Assembly (NCBI GenBank): GCA_001799485.1
Contig: MGTO01000065.1
Coordinates: 220 to 64,219, forward strand
Direction: 5' to 3'
Source of the DNA: Desulfuromonadales bacterium GWC2_61_20
Lineage (GTDB): Bacteria; Desulfobacterota; Desulfuromonadia; Desulfuromonadales; UBA2197
Length of the DNA stretch: 64,000 bases
The translations under genes were made by a program, and so were the position numbers. Below are positions 2,460 to 51,825 of the stretch, in pieces. How positions within the stretch are numbered: position 1 is the stretch's first letter; every line of letters starts with the position of its first letter. The notes under the pieces are model-generated. The model made no database searches and had not been told where the DNA came from. It saw nothing but the letters and a program-made list of their open reading frames with translations.

Positions 2460-2488
2460 GGCGGAGCGATGCCGTTTCAGCAAAGGCC

Positions 2489-2800
2489 TCAATGATACGG
2501 TCCGACTTCCGGCGCCGGCACGCGCGGTCCCGGATCGACGGGACCGTGCGCCTGCTCGTACTTGCGCAGGTTCTCCTCCAGCGCCAGGAGCAGCCGCTTG
2601 ACATGGCGCGGGGAGGTGATGATGCGACTGCAGACCTTCCCCCGCGGCGCCTGGGGCTGGACGAAAATGAAGTCGAGGGTGAACTCGGCATCGTTGTGGT
2701 TGATGACCGCCAGATTGGCGTAGTGCCCCTGTGCCGTCGCCTCGTCGATCTGGATTTCGAGCTTGAACTCGGGCTTTTTATTATCCTTTTCCTGACTCAT
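2489..2800 (-). CDS. DUF3467 domain protein
   Basis: ATG at 2798-2800. Sequence YANLAVINHNDAEFTLDFIFVQP is typical of the DUF3467 family. No signal peptide. Confidence 0.7.
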   Translation of the reverse strand: MSQEKDNKKPEFKLEIQIDEATAQGHYANLAVINHNDAEFTLDFIFVQPQAPRGKVCSRIITSPRHVKRLLLALEENLRKYEQAHGPVDPGPRVPAPEVGPYH

Positions 2801-2824
2801 ATCTTTTCCTTTCGGGGAACGGGC

Positions 2825-6250: not shown

Positions 6251-7443
6251 GGCAGCTCCTGGAAGCCGATGGGCGCGTTGCGCCACGGGGCAAAGTTGAC
6301 ACGGTCGAGGGACCAGCTCTGACCGCCTTCGACAAAGGTCGCGGTGTCGCGTCCGTCGACGATGAAGGAGGGGTTGCCGGCGCTGCCGATGCGGACCAGT
6401 TCCGCCGTCCCTTCCTCCCCCCACCAGTTGTCACGGGCATCGACCAGCCCGGTCAGCCCTTCCGGCTTGCGCCGTTCCCCCGCCTCCTCGGCGTGGCCAC
6501 TCGACTGACCGAAGGCGCCGCGGTTGCCGGCTTCGGCCTCGCGCGTCGTCTCCCCCCTCGCCTTCTCCCAGGCCGAGGACTGGAACTCGAGAAAAAAGGC
6601 CCGTTTGTTGCCGCTGAAATCGTTACCGTGCACCAGCGGATAGGATGAGTAGGCCAACGACAGGGCGTCGTCGTTCCCCCGAAAGGCGTTCCCTTCGATG
6701 CGGGCGTCGGCGCGGCGGTAGAGGCGCACGCCGGTGCGATTGTTGCTCAAGAAGTTGCCGCGCAGCTGCGGCCGAGCGGCGCGATCGACCAGGATGCCGA
6801 TCTGGTTCCCCGCGAAGCGATTCCCTTCGATGCGCGGGTCGCTGCCGGCATTGGCGATCATCAGGCCGGTCTCGTTGTCGCTGAACCGGTTGCCGCTGAA
6901 GCTGCGCGGCAGAGCCCGGTAGACATAGGCGCCGTACTTGCCGTTCTTTTCGATGCGATTGCCGGTGACGGTCGGCGTCGACTCATCCTTGATGAAGAGC
7001 CCGACCTTGCGGTTGCCGACGATGACACAATCGCTGATCTGTGCCGCGCTCTGCTGTTTGAGTTCGATGCCGACGTCATTGCCGCTGACTGTCACCCCGA
7101 GCAGGCGCGGCGTGCCGCCGCCGGCGAAAATCCCCGTCTTGGCCCCGTCGACGCGGCCACCGCTGAGAACCGTCCCCGCGTCGCACCCTTTGAGGACGAT
7201 GCCGTCCCAGTTGCTGCCGGTGAAGTGCGCGTTCTCGGCCACCAGCCGGCCGGCAACTTCGAGCTTCCCCCCGTGAAAGGTGATGACCGCACCGGAAACC
7301 ACGGTCAGGGTCGCCCCGACTTCGACCCGCACCGATTCGCGCATGGACAGGGCGCCGCACCACTCGGTATCGCTGGTGATGGTCAGGGCGGCGGCCGCGG
7401 TGGTCCAGGCACAGCAGCACACGGTCAAGAAAAGGCTCTTCAT
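6247..7443 (-). CDS. Secreted right-handed parallel beta-helix repeat protein
   Basis: ATG at 7441-7443. Repeated units SGNDVGI, VGNRKVGL, TGNRIEKN, SGNRFSDN, EGNRFAGNQIGI, RGNFLSNNRTGV, EGNAFRGN, HGNDFSGN. RDNWWG near the C-terminus. Confidence 0.8.
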   Translation of the reverse strand: MKSLFLTVCCCAWTTAAAALTITSDTEWCGALSMRESVRVEVGATLTVVSGAVITFHGGKLEVAGRLVAENAHFTGSNWDGIVLKGCDAGTVLSGGRVDGAKTGIFAGGGTPRLLGVTVSGNDVGIELKQQSAAQISDCVIVGNRKVGLFIKDESTPTVTGNRIEKNGKYGAYVYRALPRSFSGNRFSDNETGLMIANAGSDPRIEGNRFAGNQIGILVDRAARPQLRGNFLSNNRTGVRLYRRADARIEGNAFRGNDDALSLAYSSYPLVHGNDFSGNKRAFFLEFQSSAWEKARGETTREAEAGNRGAFGQSSGHAEEAGERRKPEGLTGLVDARDNWWGEEGTAELVRIGSAGNPSFIVDGRDTATFVEGGQSWSLDRVNFAPWRNAPIGFQELP

Positions 7444-7445
7444 CC

Positions 7446-8522
7446 CTACCAGACCTCACGCACGACGATGGGGGACAACTCGACCTGCTGCCCCTTGATC
7501 GCTTCGGCCCGATGATCGGCGCGGCCATCGTAGGTACCGACCCACTCTCCCGGTTCCAGGGGGCCGCCGAAGGTACTACGCACGCCGACGTAATAGCTGC
7601 CGCCGTCACCGAGGCGGATCTCGAAGCGCCCGTCGGTTCCGCTCGGGGGCGAAATGTAGGTCGGTTTGCCGACCATGCGGCTGTCGAGGTAGGCGAAGGC
7701 GTAAACCCCGGCCACCGGCTTGCCATCCTGATCGACAATGCGGCCGGCGAGGGCGGTACCGGTGGCGGTGAAGGTCCCCTGCTCGCGGCGGGCACGGTGG
7801 GCCTTTTCCTCGACTTGTTTGAGGGGAAAATCGCCCAGCTGCCGGTAGCTGCCCCGTTCGACCATCACCGGGTTGCCGGGATAGCTGGCGTTGAGATCGC
7901 CGGTGGCAACCTCGCCGGAACGGGAGCCGTCGGCCCGCTTGCGCGCGGCGAGATAGAAGCGCCCGGCCGGCAGGTTGATGCGAAAGGTGCCGTCTACAGC
8001 GGAGCGGGCCGCCTCGCCGTAGGAGGGGCCCATGAGCCCGGCGGCATCCTCACTGTAGACGTAGACGAAGGCCCCGGCCAACGGCTGTCCGTTGGCAATC
8101 AGGCGGCCACTGACGCCGGTCTCGGGCTCGGCGACCAGGGCGCCATCGCGCCCCATTTCGCGCAGATTGAAGGGGGGGATTTGGCGCTCGCCCGCGGTCA
8201 GCTCGATGGGGTTGGCCGGACATTCGGCCATGAGCATGCGCGTCCCCCCACCTTCGCCCTCACTCTTCTTCTTGGCAATGACAAAGTAGCGTCCCGGCGG
8301 CAGGGCGATACGCCACTGCCCGGCGGCATCGGCACCGGTACTGGCGAAGGGGAGGGTGGCGCGATCCTTTTCCCCCTTGAGATAGACCTCGATGGAAGCG
8401 CCAGCCACAGGCCGATCCTGAAAGAGGACGGCGCCGGAGAGGGCAGTCTCGCCACCTTTGGAACAGGCGGCCAGAAGACAAAGAAGAAAATACGACATGA
8501 GCAGGCGTAACGGCATAAACAT
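7446..8522 (-). CDS. Triple carboxypeptidase-regulatory-like domain lipoprotein, paralog 3
   Basis: Internal ATG at 8520-8522 (alternative ATG at 8516). Lipobox MFMPLRLLMSYFLLCLLAAC. Repeats contain PGRYFVIAKKK, AGRFYLAARKR, GGSYYVGVRST. Confidence 0.75.
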   Translation of the reverse strand: MFMPLRLLMSYFLLCLLAACSKGGETALSGAVLFQDRPVAGASIEVYLKGEKDRATLPFASTGADAAGQWRIALPPGRYFVIAKKKSEGEGGGTRMLMAECPANPIELTAGERQIPPFNLREMGRDGALVAEPETGVSGRLIANGQPLAGAFVYVYSEDAAGLMGPSYGEAARSAVDGTFRINLPAGRFYLAARKRADGSRSGEVATGDLNASYPGNPVMVERGSYRQLGDFPLKQVEEKAHRARREQGTFTATGTALAGRIVDQDGKPVAGVYAFAYLDSRMVGKPTYISPPSGTDGRFEIRLGDGGSYYVGVRSTFGGPLEPGEWVGTYDGRADHRAEAIKGQQVELSPIVVREVW

Positions 8523-8535
8523 CCTGACTTTGCAG

Positions 8536-10995
8536 TTACAGATTCCGTCCCCAGATTCGTCCCTCCTGGCGTCCGGTCGTGAAGACCACCAGCAGGGCCA
8601 GGGCGTAGATCGCTTCACCGCAGAGGAGGGTGACGATGAAACCGAAGTTCATGGCGACGATGACCGCGACGATGGCTCCGAGGACGCTGGTGGCGCTGTT
8701 GATCCCCCAGCTCCACGGCACCAGTTGGCCGTCTGCGTGGAGGAGGCGCAGGCCGAGGGGCATCGGCATCCCCATGAGCAGGCCCAAGGGGGCCAGCAGG
8801 AGTACGGCAACCACGCAGCGCCAGAGTTCGCCAAGGGTCAAAAGGGCGCCGAGAAGTGGGCCGAGACCGAAGATGTAGAGGTTGGAGAGCAAGAGGAGTG
8901 CCAAGAGAACCCGCACCAGCATGGCGCGCTCGGCGCCGCGCCCGACCCGGTCGCTAAGGAGGCTGCCGAGGCCGGAGAAAACCAGGAGCGAAAAGAGAAT
9001 GATGGCCAGGGCATAGATCGGCGGGCCGAGGAAGAGGACAAAGCGCCGCATCAGGCCGATCTCGATGAGCATGTAACCGAGACCGAGGCAGGCGAAATAG
9101 AGGATGCGCCGGCCGCTCCCTTGACGACTGAGACCCGCACGCTGCCAGATCAGCAGCGGCAGACAGATGAAAACGACGACAAAGCCGGAGACGACGAGGA
9201 GGAGGTTGCGCAGGGTGAGGACGGCGCGGTCTTCGAACTGGCTCTGTTGCGGAAAGGCGAAGAGGCGGAGGAAATCGGCCGGTTTGAACATGTAGTAGAA
9301 GAACGGCCGGTCGTCGGTGGTCGGGGTGATATCGAAGGGAAAGGTGCGATAGAACGCGTCGCTGCCGCCGGAGTTGATGAGCTTGCCGAAGACCCCTTCG
9401 GCGGCTTCGCGGCGGTCGGGGAGGAAGACTATTTCGAATTCGCGCTCGGCGGCCAGCTGACGCAGCTGGGCCAGCTCCGCCGTCGTGAAGGGGGTGCGTT
9501 TGAGCATGAAATTGGCCAGCCCGCGCTCCTTGATGATGGCAAGGTGACTGGCGGGATCGGCCACCCCCTGTTCCTTGAGCAAGGCCAGGCCGAGGGAGAC
9601 GAGGCGCAAGGTCTCCCGCTCGAAGATGAAACGGGAGATGGTCAGAATTCCGTCAGGGGTGAGGTGCTGCCAGTAGTCGCGGAAGCCCTCCAGGGTGTAG
9701 AGGGTGTTTTCCGACAGGGTAAAGGCGCCGGCGGCCGGGGCCATGCGGCCGAAGACCGCCGAGGCCTGGATGATGTCGTACTGCACCGGCGAGCGGCGGA
9801 TATAGCTGCGCCCCTCGTCGACCGCGACGGTGACGCCGGGGCGTCGGTAGAGTTCGCCGGTGAAGGCGCCGAAATGGTCGTTGACCGCCTCGACGATGAG
9901 GTTGTTGACCTCGACGGCCGTGACCGGACCGGCATCCATGGCCAGGGCGGTGAGAACATCCTTGCCGCCACCGGGACCGATGATGAGACTGACTGGTTGC
10001 TCCTTCAGGGCATAGGGAAGAGCAATGACGTTGGCGCGAAAGAAGTCGCGGGTCCTCTCCCCCTCCCAGCGGTACATGGTGGTGTAGCCGGTGTCGTCGA
10101 CGACCATGCCGAGCTGTTCCGGCACCGGTCCCTGGTAGGTGCGCGACAGCCCCCACGACTGGTCCATCTCCTGACTCTGGGTCGGATAGACCGCCACCCG
10201 CGAAAAGGAGTTCCATTCGCTCCAGAGGAGGCTCGGCTCGAAGCGGCCACGGACGAAACGAATCTCGGCAAAACCGTAGAGATAATTGGCCACTCCGGCC
10301 AGGGCTAACAGGAGAACCATCCCGGCCAGTCCGACCTTGTGGATACGGGCCGTCTCTTTCGGCATGAAGGACCAGGAGGCGAGCAGGCCGATGAGACCGA
10401 TGACGAGGAGGGCGGTGATGCCGCCACAGAGCTTGAGGAGGGGAATGACCAGGAGGCAGCCGGCCCCGGCGCCGAGGAGGTCCCAGCAGTAGAGGCGGTT
10501 GATGTCATTGAGCCAGCGCGACAGGATGAGGGTGATGGCCAAACCGCTGCAGAAAAAAGGCAAGGAGGTGATCAGGTAAAGCACCGCCAGCACCGGCAGG
10601 AGTCCGGCCGGCACGCCGCGATCGTAGAAACCCTGCTGGAACGGCTGATAAAAGGGCTGGTGGAAAAAGGAGAGGACCTTGAAACCGAGCTGGGGCTGAA
10701 GGCGGAAGAGGACAAAGACCGCAAAGAAGAGAGCCACCGACAGCCCGAAGAGGGCGGCAAAACGACTACAGAGGAATTCACAGCGCTCCGCCGGAAACCA
10801 CTGCGGCTTGAGATAGACGGCAAGGGCCGCCGTCCCCATGCCGAAGAGGGCCAGCGAGATCGCCATGGAAGCGAAGTGGTACCACATGAGGACCGAAAAG
10901 ACCCGGGTCAGGACCAGTTCGTACATGAGAGTGGCGAGGCAGAGGAGAAAGAGTCCCCGGAAGATGCGGGGGGGCGGCGCGGAATGAAGGATCAT
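8536..10995 (-). CDS. Polytopic membrane protein with central spermidine/spermine-synthase-like (class I SAM-fold) domain
   Basis: ATG at 10993-10995 (ATGA overlap with upstream stop). 819 aa. Multiple hydrophobic helices at both ends. Central soluble block IIGPGGGKDVLTALAMDAGPVTAVEVNNLIVEAVNDHFG...VDEGRSYIRR...YDIIQAS resembles aminopropyltransferases. Confidence 0.7.
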   Translation of the reverse strand: MILHSAPPPRIFRGLFLLCLATLMYELVLTRVFSVLMWYHFASMAISLALFGMGTAALAVYLKPQWFPAERCEFLCSRFAALFGLSVALFFAVFVLFRLQPQLGFKVLSFFHQPFYQPFQQGFYDRGVPAGLLPVLAVLYLITSLPFFCSGLAITLILSRWLNDINRLYCWDLLGAGAGCLLVIPLLKLCGGITALLVIGLIGLLASWSFMPKETARIHKVGLAGMVLLLALAGVANYLYGFAEIRFVRGRFEPSLLWSEWNSFSRVAVYPTQSQEMDQSWGLSRTYQGPVPEQLGMVVDDTGYTTMYRWEGERTRDFFRANVIALPYALKEQPVSLIIGPGGGKDVLTALAMDAGPVTAVEVNNLIVEAVNDHFGAFTGELYRRPGVTVAVDEGRSYIRRSPVQYDIIQASAVFGRMAPAAGAFTLSENTLYTLEGFRDYWQHLTPDGILTISRFIFERETLRLVSLGLALLKEQGVADPASHLAIIKERGLANFMLKRTPFTTAELAQLRQLAAEREFEIVFLPDRREAAEGVFGKLINSGGSDAFYRTFPFDITPTTDDRPFFYYMFKPADFLRLFAFPQQSQFEDRAVLTLRNLLLVVSGFVVVFICLPLLIWQRAGLSRQGSGRRILYFACLGLGYMLIEIGLMRRFVLFLGPPIYALAIILFSLLVFSGLGSLLSDRVGRGAERAMLVRVLLALLLLSNLYIFGLGPLLGALLTLGELWRCVVAVLLLAPLGLLMGMPMPLGLRLLHADGQLVPWSWGINSATSVLGAIVAVIVAMNFGFIVTLLCGEAIYALALLVVFTTGRQEGRIWGRNL

Positions 10996-12848
10996 GGGGA
11001 TTTCTTCTTCTCGTCGGCTGAGAGCAGATCGAGGGCATGAATGCGCTGATCGCGGGCGCCGAAGATCAGCCGTCCGCCCTGGAGGAGAGGGGTCCCCTGC
11101 ATCGGCGCGCCGACGGTGAAACTGGCGAGAAGGTCGGCGCTGTCGCCGCCGAAGACCCGGAGCATCCCAGCATTGTCACCGACAACGACACGCCCGTCGG
11201 CGACCAGCGGGGTGGCATAGAAGGGGCCAAACCCGTCGCGCCGCCAGACCGTCCGGCCGCTATCGGCATCGAGGCGCCACAGGCTGCCGGCTGCCGTCGC
11301 GACAAAGAGGGCGCCGCGGTCATAGACCGGAGCACCGTACCAGCATTCCTGCTGCAGCGAGTGGCGCCACATCTCCTGACCGTTGGGGGTCAAGGCCACC
11401 AGCGTCCCGGCCCGGCTGAGGACCGCTACTCCGGCCGGCAGAAGGACCGGGCTCGACAGCAGCGGCGCATCGAGGCTGCGCTCCCAGAGCAGGCGGCCGT
11501 TCAGGTCGAGAGACCACAAGGTGCCGTCGCCCCCGCTGAGGTAGAGACGCTGGCCGTCACTGGTCGGAGTCGCCCGCAGCGGGGGGCGGGCGGTGAAACT
11601 CCAGAGCAACTTGCCGCTGGCCGGATGCAGGGCGTAGAGGGTGCCGTTCCAGCCGGGGACGAGGAGAGAGTCGCCAAGTCGCAACAGCCCCCCCTGGCGA
11701 TGGTCGTCCGCCGGCGAGGCCGGATAGGAAAAGCGCCAGCGAACCCCGCCGTCGGTGCGGTCGAGGGCGACAACCTCCCGCCCCCAGGTCTGCAGGTAGA
11801 GTCGTTCGGTGTCCACCGCCGGGGTAGCATCGATGGTCTCGCCGAGGGAACGCTGCCACAGCAGGCGACCATCCCCGGACAAGGCCCGGGCCGCCCCGTC
11901 CCACCCCGGCAGATAAAGCACGCCCTCCCGGGTGACGGCCGAGGCGTCGACAAAGCCCCCTGTCGCCAGCTCCCAGGCCGAAGTCAGGGCCACACCATCA
12001 CGGGGGCCGGTCGCCGCCAGCCACTCAGGCGCCGCTTCGATGGTCACCGTGCCAAGGGTCGCGTCGGACTTGCGGTCGTAGACCGTTGCCGCTGCCTCCT
12101 GTGCATCGGGATCTCCCCACCAGTTACGGCCGACGGCGATGTCGTGCGGAAAGAAATCGCCCAGACGCAGATTATGTCCATTATTATGGAAGTTATTGCC
12201 GGCGAGCAGGAGGGAGCGGTCGGTTTCGAAGAGGAAGATACCGGTGGCATTGCGGCGGATGATATTACCGCTGATTTCCACCGTCGAATTGCGGAAATTG
12301 ATCCCCTTGCCGCTGTTGTCCTCGATAAGGCAGCGGCGGATGACAAAGCTGCCCTGCCCCAAACGGCAGCCGTCGATATTGTTGCGGATGGTACAATCCT
12401 CGACCACGGCGCGGGTAAAATGGGCATGGAGGGTGTGGGCCGAATCACGGATTTCACAGAAACTCAGGCGGCAGTCCCGGGCAAAATCGACTCGCAGCTC
12501 CAGCCAGTCTCCCGGTTGCGGGTCGCTGGCGGCACTGCGAAAGCGGATCGGTTGCTGGCGGGAACCGACGGCGACCAGGGCACCCTCGACGATCAGTGTC
12601 CCATCGCCGAGCCCGTCCTGGTCGCGATCCTGGCGCACGAAGAGAATGTCGGTCCCCGGCGCAATGGTCAGGGTCGCCCCCTTGAAGACCTTGACTTGTC
12701 CGTCGATAATCACCGTGCCGCGCCAGAGCGTATCGACGAATATTTCCGCCGGAGCCGTCAGGGGGGCGTCTGTTCCGGAAGGGCAGCTCGGGAGACAGCC
12801 CCCGAGAAAAAGGAGGGGCAGAAACAGGCAGAGCAGGGACTTCACCAC
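10992..12848 (-). CDS. Lipoprotein fusing a parallel beta-helix domain to a PQQ-like/BamB-like beta-propeller
   Basis: GTG start (12848 or 12845) after GGAGGAG. Lipobox MVKSLLCLFLPLLFLGGC. N-cap TLWRGTVIIDGQVKVFKGATLTIAPGTDILF and GRNWWG motif. C-terminal half has repeated G-LLW/G--VWR/G-EMWR blades (DGRLLWQRS, GGVRWRF, SGKLLWSF, NGRLLWERS, GQEMWRHS, SGRTVWRR). Confidence 0.75.
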   Translation of the reverse strand: MVKSLLCLFLPLLFLGGCLPSCPSGTDAPLTAPAEIFVDTLWRGTVIIDGQVKVFKGATLTIAPGTDILFVRQDRDQDGLGDGTLIVEGALVAVGSRQQPIRFRSAASDPQPGDWLELRVDFARDCRLSFCEIRDSAHTLHAHFTRAVVEDCTIRNNIDGCRLGQGSFVIRRCLIEDNSGKGINFRNSTVEISGNIIRRNATGIFLFETDRSLLLAGNNFHNNGHNLRLGDFFPHDIAVGRNWWGDPDAQEAAATVYDRKSDATLGTVTIEAAPEWLAATGPRDGVALTSAWELATGGFVDASAVTREGVLYLPGWDGAARALSGDGRLLWQRSLGETIDATPAVDTERLYLQTWGREVVALDRTDGGVRWRFSYPASPADDHRQGGLLRLGDSLLVPGWNGTLYALHPASGKLLWSFTARPPLRATPTSDGQRLYLSGGDGTLWSLDLNGRLLWERSLDAPLLSSPVLLPAGVAVLSRAGTLVALTPNGQEMWRHSLQQECWYGAPVYDRGALFVATAAGSLWRLDADSGRTVWRRDGFGPFYATPLVADGRVVVGDNAGMLRVFGGDSADLLASFTVGAPMQGTPLLQGGRLIFGARDQRIHALDLLSADEKKKSP

Positions 12849-13906
12849 ATCTCCTCCACTACAACATCCACCCCGCGCAGCTGCTCACCGTCCTTGATCT
12901 GCAGTGCGTGATCGGGGGTTCCGGCATAGGTGCCGTAGAGGTCGCCGGGACCGGGAGCGCCGCCGAGGGTATTGCGGGCGGCCAGATAGTAGGTGCCACC
13001 ATGGGGGAAGGAAAGGACAAAGGTTCCGTCGGCGGCGCTCGGCCGCGAAACATAGAGGGGGCGATTGAGCATCTGCGCATCGCCGTAGAGGACGGCGCGG
13101 GCGTCGCGCACCGGACGACCGTCGGGATGGAGAATGCGACCGTGAATGGCCGTGTTGCCGAAGAGGTTCTCCGCCATACGCGCGATTTTTTCCGGCACTT
13201 CCAGCAGCGGAATGGCAATCCGGGCAACCTCCCCGGCGCCGACGCGCAAGGGATTCCCCGGGAAATAGCCGATGAAGTCACCGGCCTGCAACGGCCCGGT
13301 CAGGCCGCTGCCACCACGACGCAAACGCGCCAGCAGGTAGTAGGTTCCCGCCGGCAGGGAGGCTTCAAAATAGCCCGCCTCATCCGTCGGCCCGGCCATG
13401 GCGTACCCCATCCCTTTCAGTCCACCGGAGAGATCGGTGTAGATATGGATCATTGCCCCGGCCAACGGCTGATGGTCGTGAAGAACAGTTCCGGCTACAC
13501 CACTGTCGATCGTCGCGGGGGGGGAAACAGCGGCCTCACTGTCGCCTTCAGGGACAAGCCCAAGATTGATCTCGGCCAGACCGCCGGCCGGAACCGTCAC
13601 CGGATTGCGTCCATAAAAAGAAAAGTAGCCGCCGCCGCGGGCGAAGAGAAAATAGTCCCCCGGAGGCAATTCCAGCTGGAAACGGCCGTCCGCGGTGGTA
13701 AGGGGAGCATTGAACGGGGCAGGTTCCTGCAGGGAGGACCAAGTCAACGGAAAGGCCATGACCCGGACATCGGCCAGGCCGACGCCGGCGGCGGCGACCT
13801 TCCCCGCAACCGTGGTCGTGACAGATTGCACGCCACGCCCGGCGGTACACCCCGACAGCCCCACGCAGAGAAAAAATATCAGCAGTCTTCGACACATGGC
13901 GTCCAT
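12842..13906 (-). CDS. Triple carboxypeptidase-regulatory-like domain lipoprotein, paralog 4 (first gene of the operon)
   Basis: ATG at 13904-13906 (alternative ATG 13897; the track start 13939 is a GTG). Lipobox CRRLLIFFLCVGLSGC. Repeats contain PGDYFLFARGG, AGTYYLLARLR, GGTYYLAARNT. Confidence 0.7.
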   Translation of the reverse strand: MDAMCRRLLIFFLCVGLSGCTAGRGVQSVTTTVAGKVAAAGVGLADVRVMAFPLTWSSLQEPAPFNAPLTTADGRFQLELPPGDYFLFARGGGYFSFYGRNPVTVPAGGLAEINLGLVPEGDSEAAVSPPATIDSGVAGTVLHDHQPLAGAMIHIYTDLSGGLKGMGYAMAGPTDEAGYFEASLPAGTYYLLARLRRGGSGLTGPLQAGDFIGYFPGNPLRVGAGEVARIAIPLLEVPEKIARMAENLFGNTAIHGRILHPDGRPVRDARAVLYGDAQMLNRPLYVSRPSAADGTFVLSFPHGGTYYLAARNTLGGAPGPGDLYGTYAGTPDHALQIKDGEQLRGVDVVVEEMW

Positions 13907-13939
13907 TTTTAGCACTTTCCGTTCCAACTTTGCGTTCAC

Positions 13940-13979
13940 AAAAAAGGGAGAGAGGGTTGCCTGAGCAACCCTCTCTCCC
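13940..13979 (-). terminator. Rho-independent terminator downstream of the CRTAC1-like gene
   Basis: Perfect 15-bp stem GGGAGAGAGGGTTGC/GCAACCCTCTCTCCC (13946-13960/13965-13979) with a 4-nt loop. Followed on the minus strand by TTTTTT (13945-13940). Confidence 0.8.
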
Positions 13980-14006
13980 TGAGTCCCGCTGCTGATCGGT
14001 AAAACT

Positions 14007-15503
14007 TTATTTCACCAGCTGAGTCAGCATATTCGGCTTCTGCAGAGTCGGCTCGATGATTTCTAGGGTCTGACCGGTCTTGACCCCGGTCATCTTCGCC
14101 TCGATGCCGCTCGGGAAGACCGCGACGACATCATACTGCTGGGCGGCGCTGAGGCCGAAGTGGACAATCTGCGGTTCCTGGGCGCAGAAGCCGCTGGCAG
14201 AGCGGAGTTCACGCATGGCCAACTGCTTGCTCTTGCCTGTTTCGAAAACCTTGACCTTGGTGCCGTAACCGTCGCGATTGGAGACGGTGCCGGCCAGCTT
14301 GACCTTGAGCCAGTTCTTGTCGTCCTGGATGTTCTTGTAGAGCTTGTTCGGGGCACCCCAGTTGATGACATAAAGATCGAGATCACCGTCGTTGTCGATA
14401 TCGCCAAAGGCGGTGCCCTTGGTGCGGACAGTCTCACACTTCAGTACCGGCTGGCTGTCGACGACATTGGTGAAGTTCCCTTTGCCGTCGTTGAGATACA
14501 GCTGGTTGGCCAGCTTGCAGTCGCCCTCGTAAAGGTCGACATCGCCATCGTGATCGATATCGCCGAAGGTCGGCCCTTTGCCCCAACCGTCGTGGGAACC
14601 CTTGATCTGGCTGGTGGCCTTGGCGAAACCCCCCTTGCCATCGTTGAGATACAGGTTGTTCGGCCCGACGTAGTTGGAAACGAAAAGATCCTGGTCGCCG
14701 TCATTATCGACATCGGCGAAAGCAGCGCCGAGACCCCAGTTCGGATCCTCGACCCCGGCCTTCTTGGTGGTGTCGGTGAAGGTGCCGTTACCGTTGTTGA
14801 TATAGAGCTTGTTCGGTTCTCCGACAGGATAACGGCCATTGACGACATAGAGATCAACGAAGTTGTCGTTGTTGACGTCGGCCCAGACCCCCATCCAGCT
14901 CCAGGAGCGGTCGCCGACCCCGGCCATATCGGTCACGTCGCTGAAGGTGCCGTTGCCGTTATTGCGGTAGAGCACATTCTTCGAACCGGGACCGTAGGTG
15001 GCGCAATAGAGATCGAGATTGCCATCGTTGTCGAAATCGGCGAAAGAGGCCCCGTAGGTGAAAGCCTTGAGGCCGACCCCGGCCGTCGCGGTCACATCGG
15101 TGAAGGTATTGTCGCCGTTGTTGTGAAAGAGACGGTTGCCGTCAAGCTCGTACTGGCCGCCCCGGGCGAGATAGAGGTCGATATGGCCGTCGTTGTCGTA
15201 GTCGCCAAAGACGCTGCCGAGGGTAAAGCCCGGGTCATCGATACCCTTGCCGGCCTTGGCGGTGATGTCCTCGAAGGTGCCGTTCCCCTTGTTCAGGTAG
15301 AGCTTGTTGGCGCCCCCCTTGTTGGAAACGTAGATATCCACGAAACCGTCATTGTTGATGTCGGCAAAAGCCACACCTTTGCCGAGGCCGTCATCGGCGA
15401 CGCCGGCGGCGACGGAGACATCGACAAACTCCTTGGCACCGGCAATCCCGGCCACCAGAGTGAGTCCACAAACCAGCATCAGACCCATCATTTTTTTCGC
15501 CAT
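14007..15503 (-). CDS. CRTAC1-family secreted protein (FG-GAP/VCBS repeats plus ASPIC/UnbV C-terminal domain)
   Basis: ATG at 15501-15503 after AAGGAGAG. Signal MAKKMMGLMLVCGLTLVAGIAGA. About eight repeats of F-D-[DIV]-[DN]-N-DG--D-Y (FADINNDGFVDIY, FGDYDNDGHIDLY, FADFDNDGNLDLY ...). C-terminal WLKVKLAGTVSNRDGYGTKVKV... matches UnbV/ASPIC. Confidence 0.8.
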   Translation of the reverse strand: MAKKMMGLMLVCGLTLVAGIAGAKEFVDVSVAAGVADDGLGKGVAFADINNDGFVDIYVSNKGGANKLYLNKGNGTFEDITAKAGKGIDDPGFTLGSVFGDYDNDGHIDLYLARGGQYELDGNRLFHNNGDNTFTDVTATAGVGLKAFTYGASFADFDNDGNLDLYCATYGPGSKNVLYRNNGNGTFSDVTDMAGVGDRSWSWMGVWADVNNDNFVDLYVVNGRYPVGEPNKLYINNGNGTFTDTTKKAGVEDPNWGLGAAFADVDNDGDQDLFVSNYVGPNNLYLNDGKGGFAKATSQIKGSHDGWGKGPTFGDIDHDGDVDLYEGDCKLANQLYLNDGKGNFTNVVDSQPVLKCETVRTKGTAFGDIDNDGDLDLYVINWGAPNKLYKNIQDDKNWLKVKLAGTVSNRDGYGTKVKVFETGKSKQLAMRELRSASGFCAQEPQIVHFGLSAAQQYDVVAVFPSGIEAKMTGVKTGQTLEIIEPTLQKPNMLTQLVK

Positions 15504-15775
15504 TGCTTCTCTCCTTTTCACCAAAAACCCAGGTTAAATGCCCCAGTCGCTGCGTGAATTTACCAAGCAAAGAAAAAGTCCATAGTAATCGATAGCTTTA
15601 TACCATTTCCGCGGCTGACGTCAACAACGTCTGAACGATAATCCTGCTGCCGGTCCAAGTCTTATGACGTAGAAATGCCTCGAATTGGAAGGTGTGACGC
15701 TAATATGCAATAAACAGACCCAGACAGTTCAGGCAGAAACTCGTCACCTTGCGGCGACAAGCGGTCAAAACTCCA

Positions 15776-16732
15776 TCACAATGCCAGTTGAAGTGCCCAG
15801 CCGAGGCTGACGCTGACCAGCAAGGCCGTCAACAAGAAAACGATGACCACCCGCCGGCGGAACATCCCCCACAACGCCACGATGGCCGGCAGACTGGTGA
15901 CCGGCCCCGCCAGCAACAGGGTCAGGGCGGCGCCGTGATCCATGCCGCGCTCCAGCAAACCGGCGAGAATGGGAATGATGGGAATCTGATTGGCCGGCAG
16001 CGGCAGGCCGGCAAGCGCGGCCGCCAGCACCGACCAGATATGTTTTCCCCCGACCAGAACCAGGAGCCATGATGTCGGTACCAGGGTGACGATGACCGCT
16101 TCAAGGACGATGGCGAGGAGGAGCCATTTGCCGACAAAGAGCCCGGCATCGAGGGTGCGATCGAGGATGAAACGGAGGCGGCTGGCGCGGGGGATGATGG
16201 TCATGGTCGGCACCGTCACTCCTCCCGCCTGGCCGATTTCGTAGGCGCTGGCCAGGGTGCCGTCCTCCCGGTAGAGCGGCTTGAGGCGGACCATGTCCCC
16301 GGCGAGATAACCACGCCGCACCAGCACTTCGCTGACAAGGCCGACCGTCAACCCGAGAATGGCGGCGCCGACCAGCTTGTACAGCGCCCACTCGGGGCCG
16401 AGGCCGCGATAGGTCAGGAGCAGGGCATCGGGGCTCATTACCGGCGAGGTGGCCAGCAGCGCCAACAACGGCGGGAGCGGGGTACCGAGCATGGCCAGAG
16501 AAATGATGATCGGGAGGATGCCGCAAGCGCACAGGGGCGAGACCATGCCGACAAGAATCGCCAGAAAAATCCCCAGCCAGCCGGCGCGGTTGATGGAATT
16601 TCTGATTTTCAGATCAAGGCGGTAGCCCTTGATGATCCCGACCAGGGCGATGGAAAGGAGAAAGAACCACCACATGCGGCCAATCTCGTCGCCGACGACC
16701 TCGAGCAGGCGCAACAATAACGATTCGGTCAT
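15776..16732 (-). CDS. Permease of the COG0701/ArsP-like family with a vicinal-cysteine motif
   Basis: ATG at 16730-16732 (ATGA overlap with upstream stop). About 10 hydrophobic helices. Motif MVSPLCACGILPII is typical of this permease family. Confidence 0.65.
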   Translation of the reverse strand: MTESLLLRLLEVVGDEIGRMWWFFLLSIALVGIIKGYRLDLKIRNSINRAGWLGIFLAILVGMVSPLCACGILPIIISLAMLGTPLPPLLALLATSPVMSPDALLLTYRGLGPEWALYKLVGAAILGLTVGLVSEVLVRRGYLAGDMVRLKPLYREDGTLASAYEIGQAGGVTVPTMTIIPRASRLRFILDRTLDAGLFVGKWLLLAIVLEAVIVTLVPTSWLLVLVGGKHIWSVLAAALAGLPLPANQIPIIPILAGLLERGMDHGAALTLLLAGPVTSLPAIVALWGMFRRRVVIVFLLTALLVSVSLGWALQLAL

Positions 16733-17271
16733 CGATCCACGCCTTCCGCCCATGCCACCGGGCCATCGAGGGGCCGCACCAGCAACAGCTCTTCCTCGGG
16801 CAGGGTCCGCAATTTCGGCAACAGAACGTCGAGAACGCGTTCCTTCTCTTCCAGCCGCCGGGCGAGTTCAACGGCGGCCAGGGAGCCGCGCTCTTGCTCC
16901 AGCGCCGCATCGAGACGGCGATACTCCCCGGCCAGGGCAAGAGCTTCCGGACGGATCTCGACCGATACCGCGGAGCCGCTGACGAGATCGTACAAGACGA
17001 GCTGATGGCGCCCACCGTCTTCCACGGTCAGCGTCCCCGCCCCTTCGCGACAGCCGGTGGTCACGACAATGCCATCGACGGCACAGGTGGCGATGCCATA
17101 ACTAGCCCGCAGGTTGGCTCCATCCACCTCGGCCAATCGGCGGCGGGCGGCATGCCCGAGTCGTCCGCCGAGGGTACTCATCGGACAGCGATGGCCGTGA
17201 CGGCGCCAGATCTCCTCGAAGATCTCCAGGGCCGGAGCTGTTACTGCCGGAATTGTCGCGTCAGAACTCAT
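16729..17271 (-). CDS. FmdE-domain protein
   Basis: ATG at 17269-17271. Motif [18 protein letters not shown] plus [15 protein letters not shown] is characteristic of the formylmethanofuran dehydrogenase subunit E-like domain. Overlaps the upstream gene by 11 nt. Confidence 0.7.
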
Positions 17272-18172
17272 AGTGATGCGGGCAATCGGTCTCGCGGATG
17301 GCGTAATAACGGGCCGTCATGTCCGGGGTCAGAAATTGCCGCACTTCCTTCAGCGCCTGCCGGAAGTGCGCCTCACTGACCATGGCGGCATCGGCCTTGA
17401 TGGCATTGATGGTGGCGCGCTTGCAGAGGCTCTCGATGTCCCAGCCGACATAGCCCTCTGCCGCATCGGCCAGACGCCGCCGGTCAATCCCGGCCGCAAG
17501 ATTGGGCATCCGGTTCATATAGATATCGAGCATGCCGAGGCGATCGTCAGCTGTCGGCGGGTTGACAAAAACCTTGCGATTGAAGCGTTTCTTCTCTTTG
17601 ATGACCGCCTGATCGACAGTATCGATGCGATAGCACGACCCCAGCAGAGCAACCCCCGGCACCTGATTGATGCGATCGATCTGCTCAATGAAGAGTCGGG
17701 TCAGATCCTTGTCGGCGAAGGTCGGAGGAACCGCGCGCAGATTCCCCGGGCTCCACTCGTAATCGCAACCGGCACGGGGCGCCAGCCATTCGCAGTCGGA
17801 AATGAAGAGAACACAGGGGGCCTCATGGATGGCACAGTCGAAGGCCTCTACCAGCTCCGCTCCCTTGCCGAGCATCTCCTGGCCGGAAATATAGACAAAG
17901 GTGACCCCGGCTTCTTTGGCGCAGGCTTCGGCCAGCATGGTAATGCCGGTGCCCAAGGGACCCCAGAGCATGACCCCGGCGGGGATGCCGAGGTTGTGCC
18001 GCAAGATCTCTGCCCGCTTCTTCAGCGGGAGACAGACCATCTCCTTCAGTGTCTCCTTGACCTCGGCATAGCCGCCGATATCGTCCCAGCCGAGGACGGG
18101 GTCGCGAACTTCATAGAAAATGCGGCTCAGTTTCCGATGCACGGTAGCGCTTCCATTTCTTCGGGCGCACAA
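17261..18172 (-). CDS. AAA+ (Cdc48/FtsH-type) family protein with degenerate Walker A, Walker B, sensor-1 and arginine-finger region
   Basis: Family-typical [24 protein letters not shown] and overall AAA module. Walker A reads GPLGTGIT (canonical GPPGxGKT). Walker B reads VLFISDCE (canonical hhhhDExD). Start uncertain: TTG 18172 or GTG 18142, no ATG available upstream of the conserved region. Confidence 0.7.
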
Positions 18173-18325
18173 AAACGATCACGGCCCGAGACAAAAAAAT
18201 TGGCCCTCGCGGGGCGCTGCAAACCTTCGTCCCAAGAGCAACATCCATGCCACCTTGACCCTCGCCAGGAGGCGGACTATAGTGCCGGGCAGAAGGTGAA
18301 GGCACCGTCGCCGCGGGAGGTCGTC

Positions 18326-19804
<1,479 letters not shown>

Positions 19805-20128: not shown

Positions 20129-20233
20129 GATCTGGGCTCCAAAAACCCTGCGGGGGATTTGCATCTGATTTGAGCCAGTCATGCTAGTCATTACCCGCGA
20201 AGAACTCAAGAAAAACCTGCGCCCCAGATAAAT

Positions 20234-51790: not shown

Positions 51791-51825
51791 CTACCAACCG
51801 TGAAGAGCTTTTTCTTCCGCTTTGG

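What the first reader, a model, noticed from the sequence alone, without database searches (positions are those of the whole stretch)
15776..18172. Overlapping three-gene operon: AAA+ protein with every catalytic motif degenerate, FmdE-domain protein, CxC permease
**Seen in sequence.**
- The genes overlap (17261-17271 and the ATGA at 16729-16732).
- The AAA+ protein keeps the Cdc48/FtsH-type scaffold (GWDDIGGY...LPLK...GVMLWGP...) but diverges at four motifs when hand-aligned to Cdc48 D2:

| Motif | This protein | Canonical |
|---|---|---|
| Walker A | GPLGTGIT | GPPGxGKT (Lys to Ile) |
| Walker B | VLFISDCE | hhhhDExD (DE to SD) |
| Sensor-1 region | LLGSCYRID | GATNRPD |
| Arg-finger region | KEKKRFN | RPGRLD |

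- The FmdE-like protein carries HGHRCP and TGC motifs. The permease carries SPLCACG.

**Established knowledge.** The Walker A Lys and Walker B Glu are required for ATP binding and hydrolysis. FmdE-like domains bind metal through Cys/His. COG0701/ArsP-type permeases use vicinal cysteines.

**Inference.** This looks like a pseudo-ATPase acting as scaffold or regulator for a thiol-based metal(loid) or small-molecule export pair. I do not recognise this combination as described.
Basis: partly seen in the sequence, partly recalled or inferred. Interest (0 to 1): 0.6.

Follow-up and report, generated by a model that had tools for sequence, protein, structure and literature searches.

The report
Conserved dead AAA protein with metal-export partners
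The flagged gene encodes a very strongly conserved, undescribed family of AAA "motor" proteins that has lost its ATP-burning residues; it sits behind a sigma-54 promoter with a metal-binding FmdE protein and a cysteine-lined permease, inside a larger cell-envelope gene cluster of unknown function.

Summary
Three overlapping minus-strand genes encode a 293-aa classic-clade AAA module, an FmdE protein and an ArsP-type permease.

- **Motif loss.** HMMER alignment to VAT/p97 confirms Walker A K->I, Walker B DE->SD, sensor-1 N->Y, loss of the first Arg finger and deletion of pore loop 1. One Arg (R186) and the P-loop glycines and Thr remain.
- **Not decay.** The replacement residues are near-invariant in 75 homologues from at least five phyla. 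The protein is more conserved than the adjacent glycerol kinase (82% vs 69%).
- **Family marks.** Members also share a conserved 23-residue insertion and a C-terminal DCPHHYxF tail.
- **Synteny.** AAA -> FmdE -> permease is conserved: FmdE in 60/71 loci, permease in 56/65.
- **Partners.** FmdE keeps its His2Cys2 metal site and the permease keeps Cys-x-Cys, both in 100% of homologues.

New here:
- A sigma-54 promoter lies upstream and is conserved across phyla.
- The triad heads a larger cluster of exported DUF4198-like lipoproteins, NosD-beta-helix/propeller and FG-GAP proteins.
- Some lineages keep the AAA gene and the envelope genes but lack FmdE and the permease.
- The nearest relatives are archaeal paralogue trios in corrinoid-methyltransferase operons.

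"Pseudo-ATPase adaptor for thiol-based export" is plausible but partial and untested. I found no description of the family in the library searched.

The parts
18237..18252 (-). Sigma-54 (-24/-12) promoter-like element, TGGCATGGATGTTGCT. It lies about 95 nt upstream of the AAA start codon.
   Evidence: 3 matches to TGGYAY-N5-YTGCW in the window against 0.34 expected; a motif at the same place (56-149 nt upstream) in 52-57 of 78 genome loci and 45 of 69 metagenome loci. Background expectation is 0.013 per 300 nt. Nitrospirota loci are included.
17261..18142 (-). Pseudo-AAA gene: 293 aa, GTG start, a bare classic-clade AAA module plus lid, with no N-domain.
   Evidence: AF2 model: pLDDT 81, pTM 0.80. 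Foldseek top hits are p97 D2 and PAN.
17939..17962 (-). Walker A remnant GPLGTGIT (residues 61-68; Lys->Ile).
   Evidence: Alignment to VAT. GPLG[TV]GIT in 69 of 75 homologues; 73 of 75 end in -IT.
17786..17812 (-). Walker B remnant VLFISDCEW (residues 111-119; Asp-Glu -> Ser-Asp).
   Evidence: S115 is Ser in 74 of 75 (one Thr) and D116 is invariant; W119 is invariant; position 118 is always acidic (E or D).
17708..17776 (-). Conserved 23-residue insertion [23 protein letters not shown], in place of pore loop 2.
   Evidence: Low model confidence (pLDDT 63-73). Shared in outline with the archaeal type-B paralogues.
17627..17641 (-). Sensor-1 remnant GSCYR (residues 168-172; Asn->Tyr).
   Evidence: Y171 and R172 are invariant.
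17573..17602 (-). Second region of homology, [10 protein letters not shown]. The first Arg finger is replaced; the second Arg (R186) is kept.
17264..17287 (-). C-terminal tail DCPHHYEF. Cys, His and Tyr are invariant, also in the archaeal relatives.
16729..17271 (-). FmdE-domain protein: 180 aa, core domain only, no zinc ribbon. It overlaps the AAA gene by 11 nt. HGHRCP is at 17182-17199 and Cys63 at 17083-17085.
   Evidence: Pfam. Weak matches to PDB 3D00, 2GVI and 2GLZ. H25, H27, C29 and C63 are 100% conserved in 57 homologues; these are the Zn/Ni ligands in the crystal structures (PMC2954224).
15776..16732 (-). ArsP_1-family permease, 318 aa, with an ATGA overlap with FmdE. SPLCACG is at 16520-16540.
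   Evidence: Pfam E 1e-41. NCBIfam SaoE and SO_0444 scores are far below their cut-offs. C68 and C70 are 100% conserved in 61 homologues.
14007..15524 (-). Exported FG-GAP / ASPIC-UnbV repeat protein.
   Evidence: Pfam. Found downstream of the AAA gene in 18 of 60 genome loci and 11 of 27 metagenome loci.
13945..13980 (-). Strong terminator-like hairpin (16-bp stem plus T run) after the FG-GAP gene.
12842..13939 (-). Lipoprotein with CarboxypepD_reg and DUF4198 domains.
   Evidence: Present in 40-42 of 57 genome loci and 18 of 22 metagenome loci.
10992..12848 (-). NosD-type beta-helix fused to a PQQ/BamB-type beta-propeller.
   Evidence: The most constant neighbour: 43 of 47 genome loci and 17 of 19 metagenome loci.
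8536..10995 (-). 819-aa polytopic membrane protein with a weak match to spermidine synthase.
   Evidence: Present in 20 of 47 loci.
1647..8618 (-). Three further CarboxypepD_reg/DUF4198 and NosD-beta-helix gene pairs. A second sigma-54-like site lies at 8888-8903.

Best explanation
The 293-aa protein belongs to a compact, undescribed family of stand-alone classic-clade AAA modules that no longer work as ATPases.

**What the protein has lost and gained.**
- Lost: the Walker A Lys, the Walker B Asp-Glu, the sensor-1 Asn, the first Arg finger, the aromatic pore loop 1 and the inter-subunit DG[FM] signal.
- Gained: near-invariant replacement residues (Ile67, Ser115-Asp116, Trp119, Cys170-Tyr171, Trp234), a conserved insertion where pore loop 2 should be, and an invariant C-terminal Cys-Pro-His-His-Tyr tail.

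**Where it sits.**
- It is the first gene behind a sigma-54 promoter.
- It is translationally coupled to an FmdE protein with an intact His2Cys2 metal site.
- FmdE is in turn coupled to an ArsP-type secondary permease with an invariant Cys-x-Cys.

**Proposed mechanism.** The dead AAA module is a non-hydrolysing structural or adaptor subunit. Together with FmdE it binds a thiophilic cargo (a soft metal, a metalloid, or a sulfur- or selenium-bearing species) and hands it to the permease. The permease passes it across the inner membrane to the exported DUF4198-like lipoproteins and NosD-beta-helix/propeller proteins encoded downstream.

**Shown.** Motif loss, purifying selection, gene order and overlaps, the conserved ligand residues, the promoter and the extended cluster.

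**Inferred.** The absence of ATPase activity, any physical complex, the nature of the cargo, and the direction of transport.
For: - **Motifs.** HMMER alignment to VAT/p97 fixes the positions. The replacements are near-invariant in 18 and then 75 homologues.
- **Selection.** Median identity to the window is 77% for AAA, 65% for the permease and 43% for FmdE over 58 triads. AAA is 82% identical against 69% for the adjacent GlpK in the same 19 genome pairs.
- **Fold.** The AF2 model is confident (pLDDT 81). Its best structural matches are p97 D2 and PAN.
- **Synteny.** FmdE is present in 60/71 loci and the permease in 56/65 (genome set). In the metagenome set the figures are 44/62 and 24/36. Overlapping reading frames recur across loci.
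- **Ligands.** The FmdE His2Cys2 residues and the permease C-x-C are 100% conserved. The same four FmdE residues bind Zn/Ni in crystal structures, and that paper states that most FmdE genes adjoin metal-transporter genes (PMC2954224).
- **Permease relatives.** ArsP, SO_0444 and SaoE are described or proposed efflux carriers for organoarsenicals or soft metals that use the same Cys motif (own knowledge for ArsP).
- **Promoter.** The sigma-54 motif is conserved across phyla.
- **Envelope genes.** At least one lies downstream in 45/47 and 17/19 loci with enough sequence.
- **No active partner nearby.** No second AAA gene occurs in any of 80 loci or in the window.
Against: - Nitrospirota, Actinomycetes and some other lineages keep the AAA gene without an adjacent FmdE or permease. 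The AAA function cannot depend on that pair alone.
- Three loci have AAA followed directly by the permease, with no FmdE.
- No metal-responsive riboswitch or regulator was found.
- The P-loop glycines, Thr68, Asp116, the acidic residue at position 118 and Arg186 are conserved. Some nucleotide or anion binding is therefore not excluded.
- Cargo and transport direction are guesses taken from family names.
- A separate sub-clade links the AAA gene to peptidase-U32 and TP_methylase genes, which the metal-relay picture does not explain.
- There is no experimental data.
Confidence: 0.45

Rival explanations
1. The AAA protein serves the exported NosD-beta-helix/propeller, DUF4198-like and FG-GAP proteins, or the cluster as a whole. 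It could be a cytoplasmic assembly factor, a holdase for the precursors, or an auto-regulator of the sigma-54 operon. FmdE and the permease would then be an optional add-on module.
For: - Envelope genes are the most constant neighbours: NosD-propeller in 43/47 and 17/19 loci, any envelope gene in 45/47 and 17/19.
- Nitrospirota loci read promoter-AAA-CPDreg-FGGAP-CPDreg-NosD, with no FmdE or permease.
- The AAA gene is always the first gene after the sigma-54 site.
Against: - The envelope proteins carry Sec or lipoprotein signals and need no known cytoplasmic AAA partner (N-termini read).
- The tight overlaps are with FmdE and the permease. The envelope genes follow after gaps of 70-290 nt.
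- Actinomycetes loci have neither set of genes.
Confidence: 0.25
2. The protein still binds a nucleotide, or hydrolyses it slowly, through a non-canonical site. It would then act as a nucleotide-dependent switch rather than a pure scaffold.
For: - The G-x-x-G-x-G-x-T backbone of the P-loop, Thr68, Asp116, the acidic residue at position 118, Arg186 and the DIGG N-loop are invariant or nearly so.
- The pocket residues are the most conserved part of the protein.
- Archaeal type-A relatives keep GPPGGGKT.
- The Actinomycetes variants have GPLGTGIK.
Against: - The Walker A Lys, Walker B Asp and Glu, sensor-1 Asn and one Arg finger are all missing at once. They are replaced by hydrophobic or aromatic residues (Ile, Tyr, Trp) in 73 of 75 sequences.
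- By established AAA+ mutagenesis, the loss of any one of these abolishes hydrolysis.
Confidence: 0.15
3. The dead module is a regulatory subunit that joins a ring of an active AAA protein encoded elsewhere (for example FtsH). This would parallel the archaeal relatives, where three paralogues with different degrees of motif loss are co-encoded.
For: - Archaeal sister proteins occur as trios in one locus: one with an intact Walker A and two degenerate.
- Known AAA+ pseudo-ATPases usually work inside mixed rings. Examples are the clamp-loader delta-prime, BchD and plant FtsHi (own knowledge).
Against: - No second AAA gene lies within +/-8 kb in any of 80 bacterial loci, or in the 64-kb window.
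- The inter-subunit signalling motif and one Arg finger are lost.
- Whole genomes could not be searched for paralogues.
Confidence: 0.1
4. The gene is a decaying pseudogene or an annotation artefact.
For: Loss of all catalytic residues would ordinarily suggest decay.
Against: - The reading frame is intact at 293 aa in more than 150 loci from at least five phyla.
- Identity is 52-88%, with invariant replacement residues.
- The protein is more conserved than GlpK.
Confidence: 0.01

Closest known systems
Classic-clade AAA ATPases (VAT / p97-Cdc48 D2, PAN, FtsH)
   Same: Same fold and lid domain. Best sequence matches (phmmer E 2e-65 to VAT; NCBIfam CDC48/PAN E 1e-38) and best structural matches. 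The DIGG loop, the P-loop glycines and the second SRH Arg are retained.
   Different: - No N-domain, single module only.
- Walker A Lys, Walker B DE, sensor-1 Asn, first Arg finger, pore-loop-1 aromatic and the DG[FM] motif are all lost.
- An extra conserved insertion and a Cys-His-His-Tyr tail.
- All NCBIfam scores are far below the family cut-offs.
Known AAA+ pseudo-ATPases (clamp-loader delta and delta-prime, BchD/ChlD, chloroplast FtsHi, NSF D2, Pex6 D1) - own knowledge
   Same: An AAA fold kept for structural or regulatory roles after loss of the catalytic residues.
   Different: Those act inside hetero-oligomers with active paralogues, or as one domain of a two-ring protein. Here the protein stands alone, no active paralogue is encoded nearby, and its genomic partners are a metal-binding protein and a permease.
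Hydrothermarchaeales single-domain AAA paralogue trios (uncharacterised; P0255/P0318, P0229, P0333)
   Same: Nearest relatives per domain: 33-36% identity, about 240 bits over the full length. Same size, same C-terminal [DE]C-x-H-x-Y-x-[FY] tail, and sensor-1 Tyr in types A and B. Type B also shares GPLGTG, D-W-LAP, SCYRID, VGWD and the insertion. FmdE genes lie nearby in one locus.
   Different: - Archaeal; three co-encoded paralogues.
- Type A keeps the Walker A Lys-Thr and the Walker B Glu.
- They are embedded in URO-D / corrinoid-protein / URO-D methyltransferase operons, not next to a permease or envelope genes.
FmdE family (PF02663; PDB 2GLZ, 2GVI, 3D00)
   Same: The alpha+beta core with the FHGHxC motif and a second Cys, forming a His2Cys2 Zn/Ni site. 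The structure paper states that FmdE genes usually adjoin metal-transporter genes.
   Different: No C-terminal zinc ribbon. Instead there is a roughly 60-residue, probably helical tail. No formylmethanofuran dehydrogenase genes are present. The pairing with an AAA module has not been reported.
ArsP / SO_0444 / SaoE permeases (PF03773, TC 2.A.119)
   Same: Same Pfam family and the same vicinal Cys-x-Cys in a membrane segment.
   Different: Scores of 88-92 bits against cut-offs of 300-325. No ars, mer or SAO genes are nearby. The substrate is unknown.
ArsD-ArsA-ArsB and NosL-NosDFY metal relay systems (own knowledge)
   Same: The same logic: a cytoplasmic or periplasmic metal-binding chaperone, a P-loop protein and a membrane carrier that pass a thiophilic species to a periplasmic beta-helix protein.
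   Different: There the P-loop proteins (ArsA, NosF) are active ATPases of other folds and the carriers belong to other families. There is no homology apart from the NosD-type beta-helix.

Membership tests
AAA (PF00004) classic clade | AAA alpha/beta core plus four-helix lid | tested here: met
   Pfam AAA E 1.4e-15 and AAA_lid_3 E 1.7e-9. Foldseek to p97 D2 and PAN, probability 1.0, TM 0.65-0.72.
AAA (PF00004) classic clade | Walker A GxxxxGK[ST] | tested here: not met
   GPLGTGIT aligned to GPPGTGKT. Ile in all 75 homologues; Ile-Thr in 73 of 75.
AAA (PF00004) classic clade | Walker B hhhhDE | tested here: not met
   FISDCE aligned to FIDEID. Ser-Asp in 74 of 75 (one Thr-Asp).
AAA (PF00004) classic clade | Sensor-1 Asn/Thr | tested here: not met
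   GSCYR aligned to GATNR. Tyr is invariant.
AAA (PF00004) classic clade | Two SRH arginine fingers | tested here: inconclusive
   KEKKRF aligned to RRPGRF. The first Arg becomes Glu or Lys; the second Arg (R186) is invariant.
AAA (PF00004) classic clade | Pore-loop-1 aromatic-hydrophobic-Gly | tested here: not met
   SKYYGQSE / SKWVGESE aligned to LGK--G---, a five-residue deletion with no aromatic residue. GQEMLGK is near-invariant.
AAA (PF00004) classic clade | ATP hydrolysis and hexamer formation | not testable with these tools
   Needs purified protein.
FmdE (PF02663) | Core domain with FHGHxC plus a distal Cys (His2Cys2 metal site) | tested here: met
   Pfam E 3e-20. H25, H27, C29 and C63 are 100% conserved in 57 sequences. 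The ligands are as in PMC2954224.
FmdE (PF02663) | C-terminal treble-clef zinc finger (in a subset of the family) | tested here: not met
   No Cys residues after residue 74. This is the single-domain type, like 2GLZ.
ArsP organoarsenical exporter (PF03773) | ArsP_1 fold with a vicinal Cys pair | tested here: met
   Pfam E 1.3e-41. SPLCACG, with both Cys 100% conserved.
ArsP organoarsenical exporter (PF03773) | ars-operon context and organoarsenical efflux | tested here: not met
   No ars genes in the window or in 160 loci. Efflux itself was not tested.
SO_0444 Cu/Zn efflux and SaoE equivalogs (NCBIfam) | Score above the curated cut-off | tested here: not met
   87.9 bits vs a cut-off of 300, and 91.7 vs 325.
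Anti-phage AAA systems (IetA/IteA) | Specific PADLOC or NCBIfam match, and a partner protease | tested here: not met
   Only generic AAA similarity: 43 bits in PADLOC, 41.6 vs a cut-off of 510 in NCBIfam. No IetS-like gene is present.
Sigma-54-dependent operon | GG-N10-GC element (TGGCAC-N5-TTGCW) at a fixed distance upstream | tested here: met
   TGGCATGGATGTTGCT at 18252-18237. Conserved in 52-57 of 78 and 45 of 69 loci against 0.013 expected. No enhancer-binding protein gene is in the window, and transcription was not tested.

The most novel reading that the evidence does not exclude
The AAA fold has been converted from an ATPase into a carrier for a ligand or a metal. The former gamma-phosphate site is now lined by invariant Ile, Tyr, Trp and Cys residues, and the protein ends in an invariant Cys-His(-His)-Tyr tail. 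On this reading the family would be a new kind of cofactor or metal chaperone serving a so far undescribed, multi-phylum envelope system. In some lineages that system also encodes UbiU/UbiV-like U32 enzymes and a CbiF-like tetrapyrrole methylase. The partly active archaeal sisters would be accessory factors of corrinoid methyltransferases.
Probability: 0.15. Interest if true: 0.8.

Novelty: new variant of a known kind. Interest (0 to 1): 0.58.

Why it matters
AAA+ pseudo-ATPases are known mainly as silent subunits inside rings of active paralogues. This is a free-standing bacterial AAA module that has lost its core catalytic residues yet evolves more slowly than a housekeeping kinase, so its remodelled pocket and tail must carry out some other, strongly selected task.

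It marks a conserved sigma-54-controlled gene set found in at least five phyla:
- an FmdE metal-binding protein;
- a Cys-x-Cys permease;
- DUF4198-like lipoproteins;
- NosD-type beta-helix/propeller proteins.

I found no described function for this gene set.

Three things would follow from working out what the protein binds:
- a function for a family of FmdE proteins, which are still orphans;
- a first physiological context for a branch of ArsP-type permeases outside arsenic resistance;
- a clean natural case of neofunctionalisation of an AAA nucleotide site.

The archaeal relatives, which keep part of the motifs and sit in corrinoid methyltransferase operons, provide an evolutionary series for studying that transition.

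Tried and rejected
- **Alternative alignment restoring Lys or Asp-Glu.** HMMER alignments to both VAT domains agree with the hand alignment. Rejected.
- **Pseudogene.** Rejected on conservation.
- **Defence system.** PADLOC gives only generic IetA/TRIP13-level AAA similarity, and nothing for the two partners.
- **SaoE or SO_0444 membership of the permease.** Scores are far below the cut-offs. The SAO paper mentions neither FmdE nor an AAA protein.
- **ars operon.** No ars genes were seen.
- **Riboswitch or other Rfam element upstream of the operon.** None was found in the window at gathering or E<=1 thresholds, and none next to the AAA gene in nine other loci. The Moco riboswitches in L074 belong to downstream ABC genes. 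The TPP riboswitch in L038 belongs to the divergent thi genes.
- **Sigma-54 activator gene in the window.** There is no GAFTGA-type motif in any frame.
- **Second AAA paralogue nearby.** None.
- **Thiamine genes upstream in Desulfuromonadales.** They lie on the opposite strand, are lineage-specific and have their own riboswitch. I judged this to be inherited synteny.
- **Literature.** There were no papers combining FmdE, permease and AAA. There were none combining DUF4198, NosD, FG-GAP, U32 and FmdE in a relevant way. Nothing was found on the archaeal AAA trio.
- **Structure search.** It returned only canonical AAA ATPases and gave no functional hint.
- **Model coordinates.** They could not be inspected. 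The position of the C-terminal tail relative to the pocket is unknown, and its pLDDT is below 50.


Full report
**1. What is in the sequence.**

On the minus strand there are three consecutive ORFs:

| Coordinates | Length | Notes |
|---|---|---|
| 18172/18142-17261 | 303/293 aa | AAA |
| 17271-16729 | 180 aa | FmdE |
| 16753/16732-15776 | 325/318 aa | permease |

- Pfam assigns AAA + AAA_lid_3, FmdE and ArsP_1.
- NCBIfam gives only sub-threshold matches: CDC48/PAN/FtsH for the first protein and SaoE/SO_0444 for the third.
- The overlaps can be read directly from the sequence. CAC TAT GAG TTC TGA contains the FmdE ATG, an 11-nt overlap at 17271-17261. GAT CGA TGA contains the permease ATG, the ATGA at 16732-16729.
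- All homologues of the first protein are 293 aa and begin MH[RK]KL. The start is therefore GTG 18142, preceded by GGAAG.
- The JGI gene call for FmdE (150 aa) begins after the invariant HGHxC motif. ATG 17271 is the only in-frame start upstream of that motif, so the overlap is real.

**2. The motif losses are real and fixed.**

phmmer against PDB sequences aligns the protein over its full length to both AAA domains of VAT and p97 (E 2e-65).

| Element | This protein | VAT/p97 |
|---|---|---|
| Walker A | GPLGTGIT | GPPGTGKT |
| Walker B | VLFISDCEW | IIFIDEIDS |
| Sensor-1 | LLGSCYRID | VIGATNRID |
| SRH | [11 protein letters not shown] | AL-RRPGRFDRE |

- The first Arg finger is lost and the second Arg is kept.
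- The pore-loop-1 stretch SKYYGQSE/SKWVGESE is reduced to LGK-G. The inter-subunit DG[IM] becomes DRI.
- In 75 family members taken from genome contigs, the counts are as follows. GPLG[TV]GIT occurs in 69, and 73 of 75 end in -IT. The Ser-Asp of Walker B occurs in 74 (one Thr-Asp). [CA]-Y-R of sensor-1 occurs in all, with Tyr invariant. K-E-[KH]-x-R-[FY]-N-R-K occurs in all. DCPHHYx-F at the C-terminus occurs in 73.
- A 23-residue insertion ([23 protein letters not shown]) replaces pore loop 2 and is also conserved.
- The AF2 model is confident for the core (pLDDT 81, pTM 0.80). It is less confident for the insertion and poor for the last five residues.
- Foldseek returns p97 D2 and PAN first.
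One arginine, the P-loop glycines, Thr68, Asp116 and the acidic residue at position 118 survive.

**3. It is under unusually strong selection.**

- The large protein search found more than 120 clusters of 60-87% identity, all about 293 aa. They come from Desulfuromonadales, Deferrisomatales and unclassified MAGs.
- The genome scan adds Nitrospirota, Actinomycetes, Pseudomonadota and Desantisbacteria, at 52-61% identity.
- At 50% clustering the family collapses to very few representatives.
- Across 58 loci with all three genes, median identity to the window is 77% (AAA), 65% (permease) and 43% (FmdE).
- Against the adjacent glycerol kinase in the same 19 genome pairs it is 82% vs 69%.
- This rules out decay. 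It implies that the replacement residues are functional.

**4. Synteny, and the unit is larger than three genes.**

- tblastn of the window proteins against 80 genome loci finds FmdE directly downstream in 60 of 71 loci with enough sequence, and the permease in 56 of 65.
- A second, differently seeded set of 80 metagenome loci gives 44 of 62 and 24 of 36.
- Three loci have AAA followed directly by the permease.
- The downstream genes are also conserved:

| Gene | Genome set | Metagenome set |
|---|---|---|
| NosD-type beta-helix fused to a PQQ/BamB-type propeller | 43/47 | 17/19 |
| CarboxypepD_reg/DUF4198 lipoprotein | 40-42/57 | 18/22 |
| FG-GAP/ASPIC | 18/60 | 11/27 |
| 819-aa spermidine-synthase-like membrane protein | 20/47 | 4/18 |

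- In the window these occupy 15524-8536. Three more lipoprotein/beta-helix pairs follow, down to about 1647.
- Nitrospirota loci read AAA-lipoprotein-FG-GAP-lipoprotein-NosD/propeller, with no FmdE or permease.
- Actinomycetes loci have a peptidase-U32 pair directly upstream of the AAA gene, and neither of the other sets.
- A further sub-clade carries the full string TP_methylase-U32-U32-like-AAA-FmdE-permease-FG-GAP-lipoprotein-NosD/propeller (L096, L099, L102).
- Within the flanks fetched here (up to about 8 kb each side of the AAA gene), at least one of the three neighbour sets accompanies the AAA gene in most loci with enough flanking sequence. A few (for example L167) show none. No single known pathway joins all of the sets.

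**5. Regulation.**

- Aligning the regions upstream of the AAA gene exposed TGGCATG-N4-TTGCT, a textbook sigma-54 -24/-12 element. In the window it lies at 18252-18237, about 95 nt before the start codon.
- A motif of this form lies 56-149 nt upstream in 52 of 78 genome loci. The count rises to 57 with the first base relaxed, and is 45 of 69 in metagenome loci. Background density would give 0.013 per 300 nt.
- It is present in both Desulfuromonadales and Nitrospirota. It is absent from Deferrisomatales and from the U32-linked clades.
- A second site lies at 8903-8888, before the next lipoprotein gene.
- A strong hairpin terminator follows the FG-GAP gene at 13980-13945.
- No Rfam element precedes the operon. 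No enhancer-binding protein gene is in the window.

**6. The partners.**

- *FmdE.* H25, H27, C29 and C63 are invariant in 57 homologues. By alignment to 2GVI they correspond to the four residues that bind Zn, or Zn/Ni, in the crystal structures of FmdE proteins.
- The paper reporting those structures states that most FmdE genes adjoin metal-ion transporter genes (PMC2954224).
- *Permease.* C68 and C70 (SPLCACG) are invariant in 61 homologues.
[quoted passage not shown] It is also the hallmark of ArsP (own knowledge).
- The window protein is a member of neither equivalog. No solved structure is related by sequence.

**7. Relatives that keep part of the motifs.**

- Per domain, the nearest outgroups are single-domain AAA proteins of about 290 aa from Hydrothermarchaeales.
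- They share the size and the C-terminal [DE]C-x-H-x-Y-x-[FY] tail. Types A and B also share the Tyr at sensor-1.
- They occur as three paralogue types in one locus:

| Type | Walker A | Other features |
|---|---|---|
| A | GPPGGGK[TS], intact | N-E at Walker B |
| B | GPLGTGKG | MDIDW, SCYRID, VGWD and the insertion; closest to the bacterial family |
| C | degenerate | keeps the sensor-1 Asn (or Gln/Thr) |

- In three independent contigs the order is URO-D, corrinoid protein, URO-D, AAA(C), AAA(B), with AAA(A) close by in two of them. A fourth contig has an AAA gene beside URO-D genes, a corrinoid protein and a RACo-type activase.
- FmdE genes lie nearby in one locus.
- The bacterial family therefore looks like a type-B-like subunit that became independent and lost the remaining catalytic residues.
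- No second AAA gene lies near it in any bacterial locus.

**8. Most likely mechanism, and its rivals.**

*Shown:*
- a non-canonical, strongly constrained AAA module;
- translational coupling to a His2Cys2 metal-binding protein and a Cys-x-Cys permease;
- a sigma-54 promoter;
- a conserved set of exported proteins downstream.

*Inferred:*
- the AAA module does not hydrolyse ATP;
- it serves as an adaptor or scaffold that, with FmdE, loads or gates the permease for a thiophilic cargo destined for the envelope proteins.

I put this at about 0.45. The rivals are:

| Rival | Confidence |
|---|---|
| The AAA protein primarily serves the envelope proteins or the operon's regulation, with FmdE and the permease as an optional module | 0.25 |
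| It retains non-canonical nucleotide binding and acts as a switch | 0.15 |
| It joins a ring of an active AAA protein encoded elsewhere, as its archaeal relatives suggest | 0.10 |
| Decay | excluded |

The cargo is not identified. The hints point in different directions:
- Zn/Ni in FmdE crystals;
- DUF4198, a family whose members are annotated as nickel/cobalt-uptake components (own knowledge);
- corrinoid operons in the archaeal sisters;
- a CbiF-like methylase, and UbiU/V-like enzymes;
- a cysteine desulfurase, a Se/S-carrier and YedE upstream of the AAA gene in one Nitrospirota locus.

**9. Comparison with what is known, and novelty.**

- By fold and sequence the protein is a classic-clade AAA module. 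It fails four of the five sequence motifs tested that define an AAA ATPase; the fifth, the pair of Arg fingers, is half-lost.
- It resembles known AAA+ pseudo-ATPases in principle. It differs in standing alone and in its partners.
- FmdE and ArsP_1 membership is met at the domain level. The specific characterised families (Fmd operon protein, ArsP, SO_0444, SaoE) are not matched.
- No curated family model names the AAA protein, and no paper in the searchable library describes it, the triad or the extended cluster.
- I rate it a new variant of a known kind (AAA+ pseudo-enzymes) that marks an undescribed multi-gene system. Interest is moderate to high (0.58).
- It is a solid and surprising conservation pattern with clear experiments attached. 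There is no established function yet, and no direct bearing on a long-standing open question.

Noticed in passing
window 1647-13939 (-): Four tandem pairs of a CarboxypepD_reg/DUF4198 lipoprotein gene followed by a NosD-type beta-helix gene. The first beta-helix is fused to a PQQ/BamB-type propeller. An 819-aa membrane protein gene is inserted after the first pair. This is a repeated module of unknown function.
   Followed up: partly
window 8888-8903 (-) and 51364-51379 (-): Two further sigma-54-like -24/-12 matches. One lies inside the 3' part of the 819-aa gene, 270 nt before the next lipoprotein gene. The other lies between a c-di-GMP-I riboswitch (51149-51226, -) and a TPP riboswitch (51696-51800, +).
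   Followed up: no
window 13945-13980 (-): A very strong terminator-like hairpin (16-bp stem, 10 G-C pairs, T run) directly after the FG-GAP gene. It suggests that the first transcription unit is AAA-FmdE-permease-FG-GAP.
   Followed up: no
L090 10962-11414 (= window about 17181-16729): The public JGI gene call for the FmdE gene is 150 aa. It starts after the invariant HGHxC metal-binding motif, so it is truncated by 30 codons and hides the overlap with the AAA gene.
   Followed up: yes
L085-L089 (Hydrothermarchaeales contigs): Three co-encoded single-domain AAA paralogues with graded loss of the ATPase motifs. They sit immediately after URO-D / corrinoid-protein / URO-D methyltransferase genes, with FmdE and B12-radical-SAM genes nearby in one contig. 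This is an uncharacterised accessory module of corrinoid methyltransferase systems.
   Followed up: partly
L069, L073-L077, L094-L096, L099, L102, L159-L161: A pair of peptidase-U32 (UbiU/UbiV-like) genes lies directly upstream of the AAA gene on the same strand, in a distinct AAA sub-clade. A CbiF-like TP_methylase often accompanies them. In L049, L078 and L141 a polyprenyl synthetase is upstream instead.
   Followed up: partly
L074 9800-9938 and 13437-13568: Two Moco/Tuco riboswitches precede ABC-transporter genes, with a MoeA-like gene further on (MoeA judged from its N-terminal sequence only, not scanned). They lie downstream of the Actinomycetes AAA gene. The link to the AAA gene is uncertain.
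   Followed up: no
L064 2275-7938: In one Nitrospirota locus the AAA gene is preceded by two YedE/YeeE-type sulfur or selenium transporters, a class-V aminotransferase (cysteine-desulfurase-like) and a DUF3343 Se/S-carrier protein.
   Followed up: no
window 19808-20131 (-) and 18326-19804 (+): A 106-aa helical protein with no Pfam match is conserved next to the AAA promoter in 26 Desulfuromonadales loci. In the window and some relatives a glycerol kinase gene is inserted between them in the opposite orientation.
   Followed up: no
window about 20.3-27 kb (-): Exopolysaccharide export genes: a Wza-like Poly_export/SLBB protein, a GNVR chain-length determinant fused to a tyrosine-kinase-like ATPase, a BBP2_2 porin and a Polysacc_synt_2 protein. 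They lie just upstream of the cluster.
   Followed up: no
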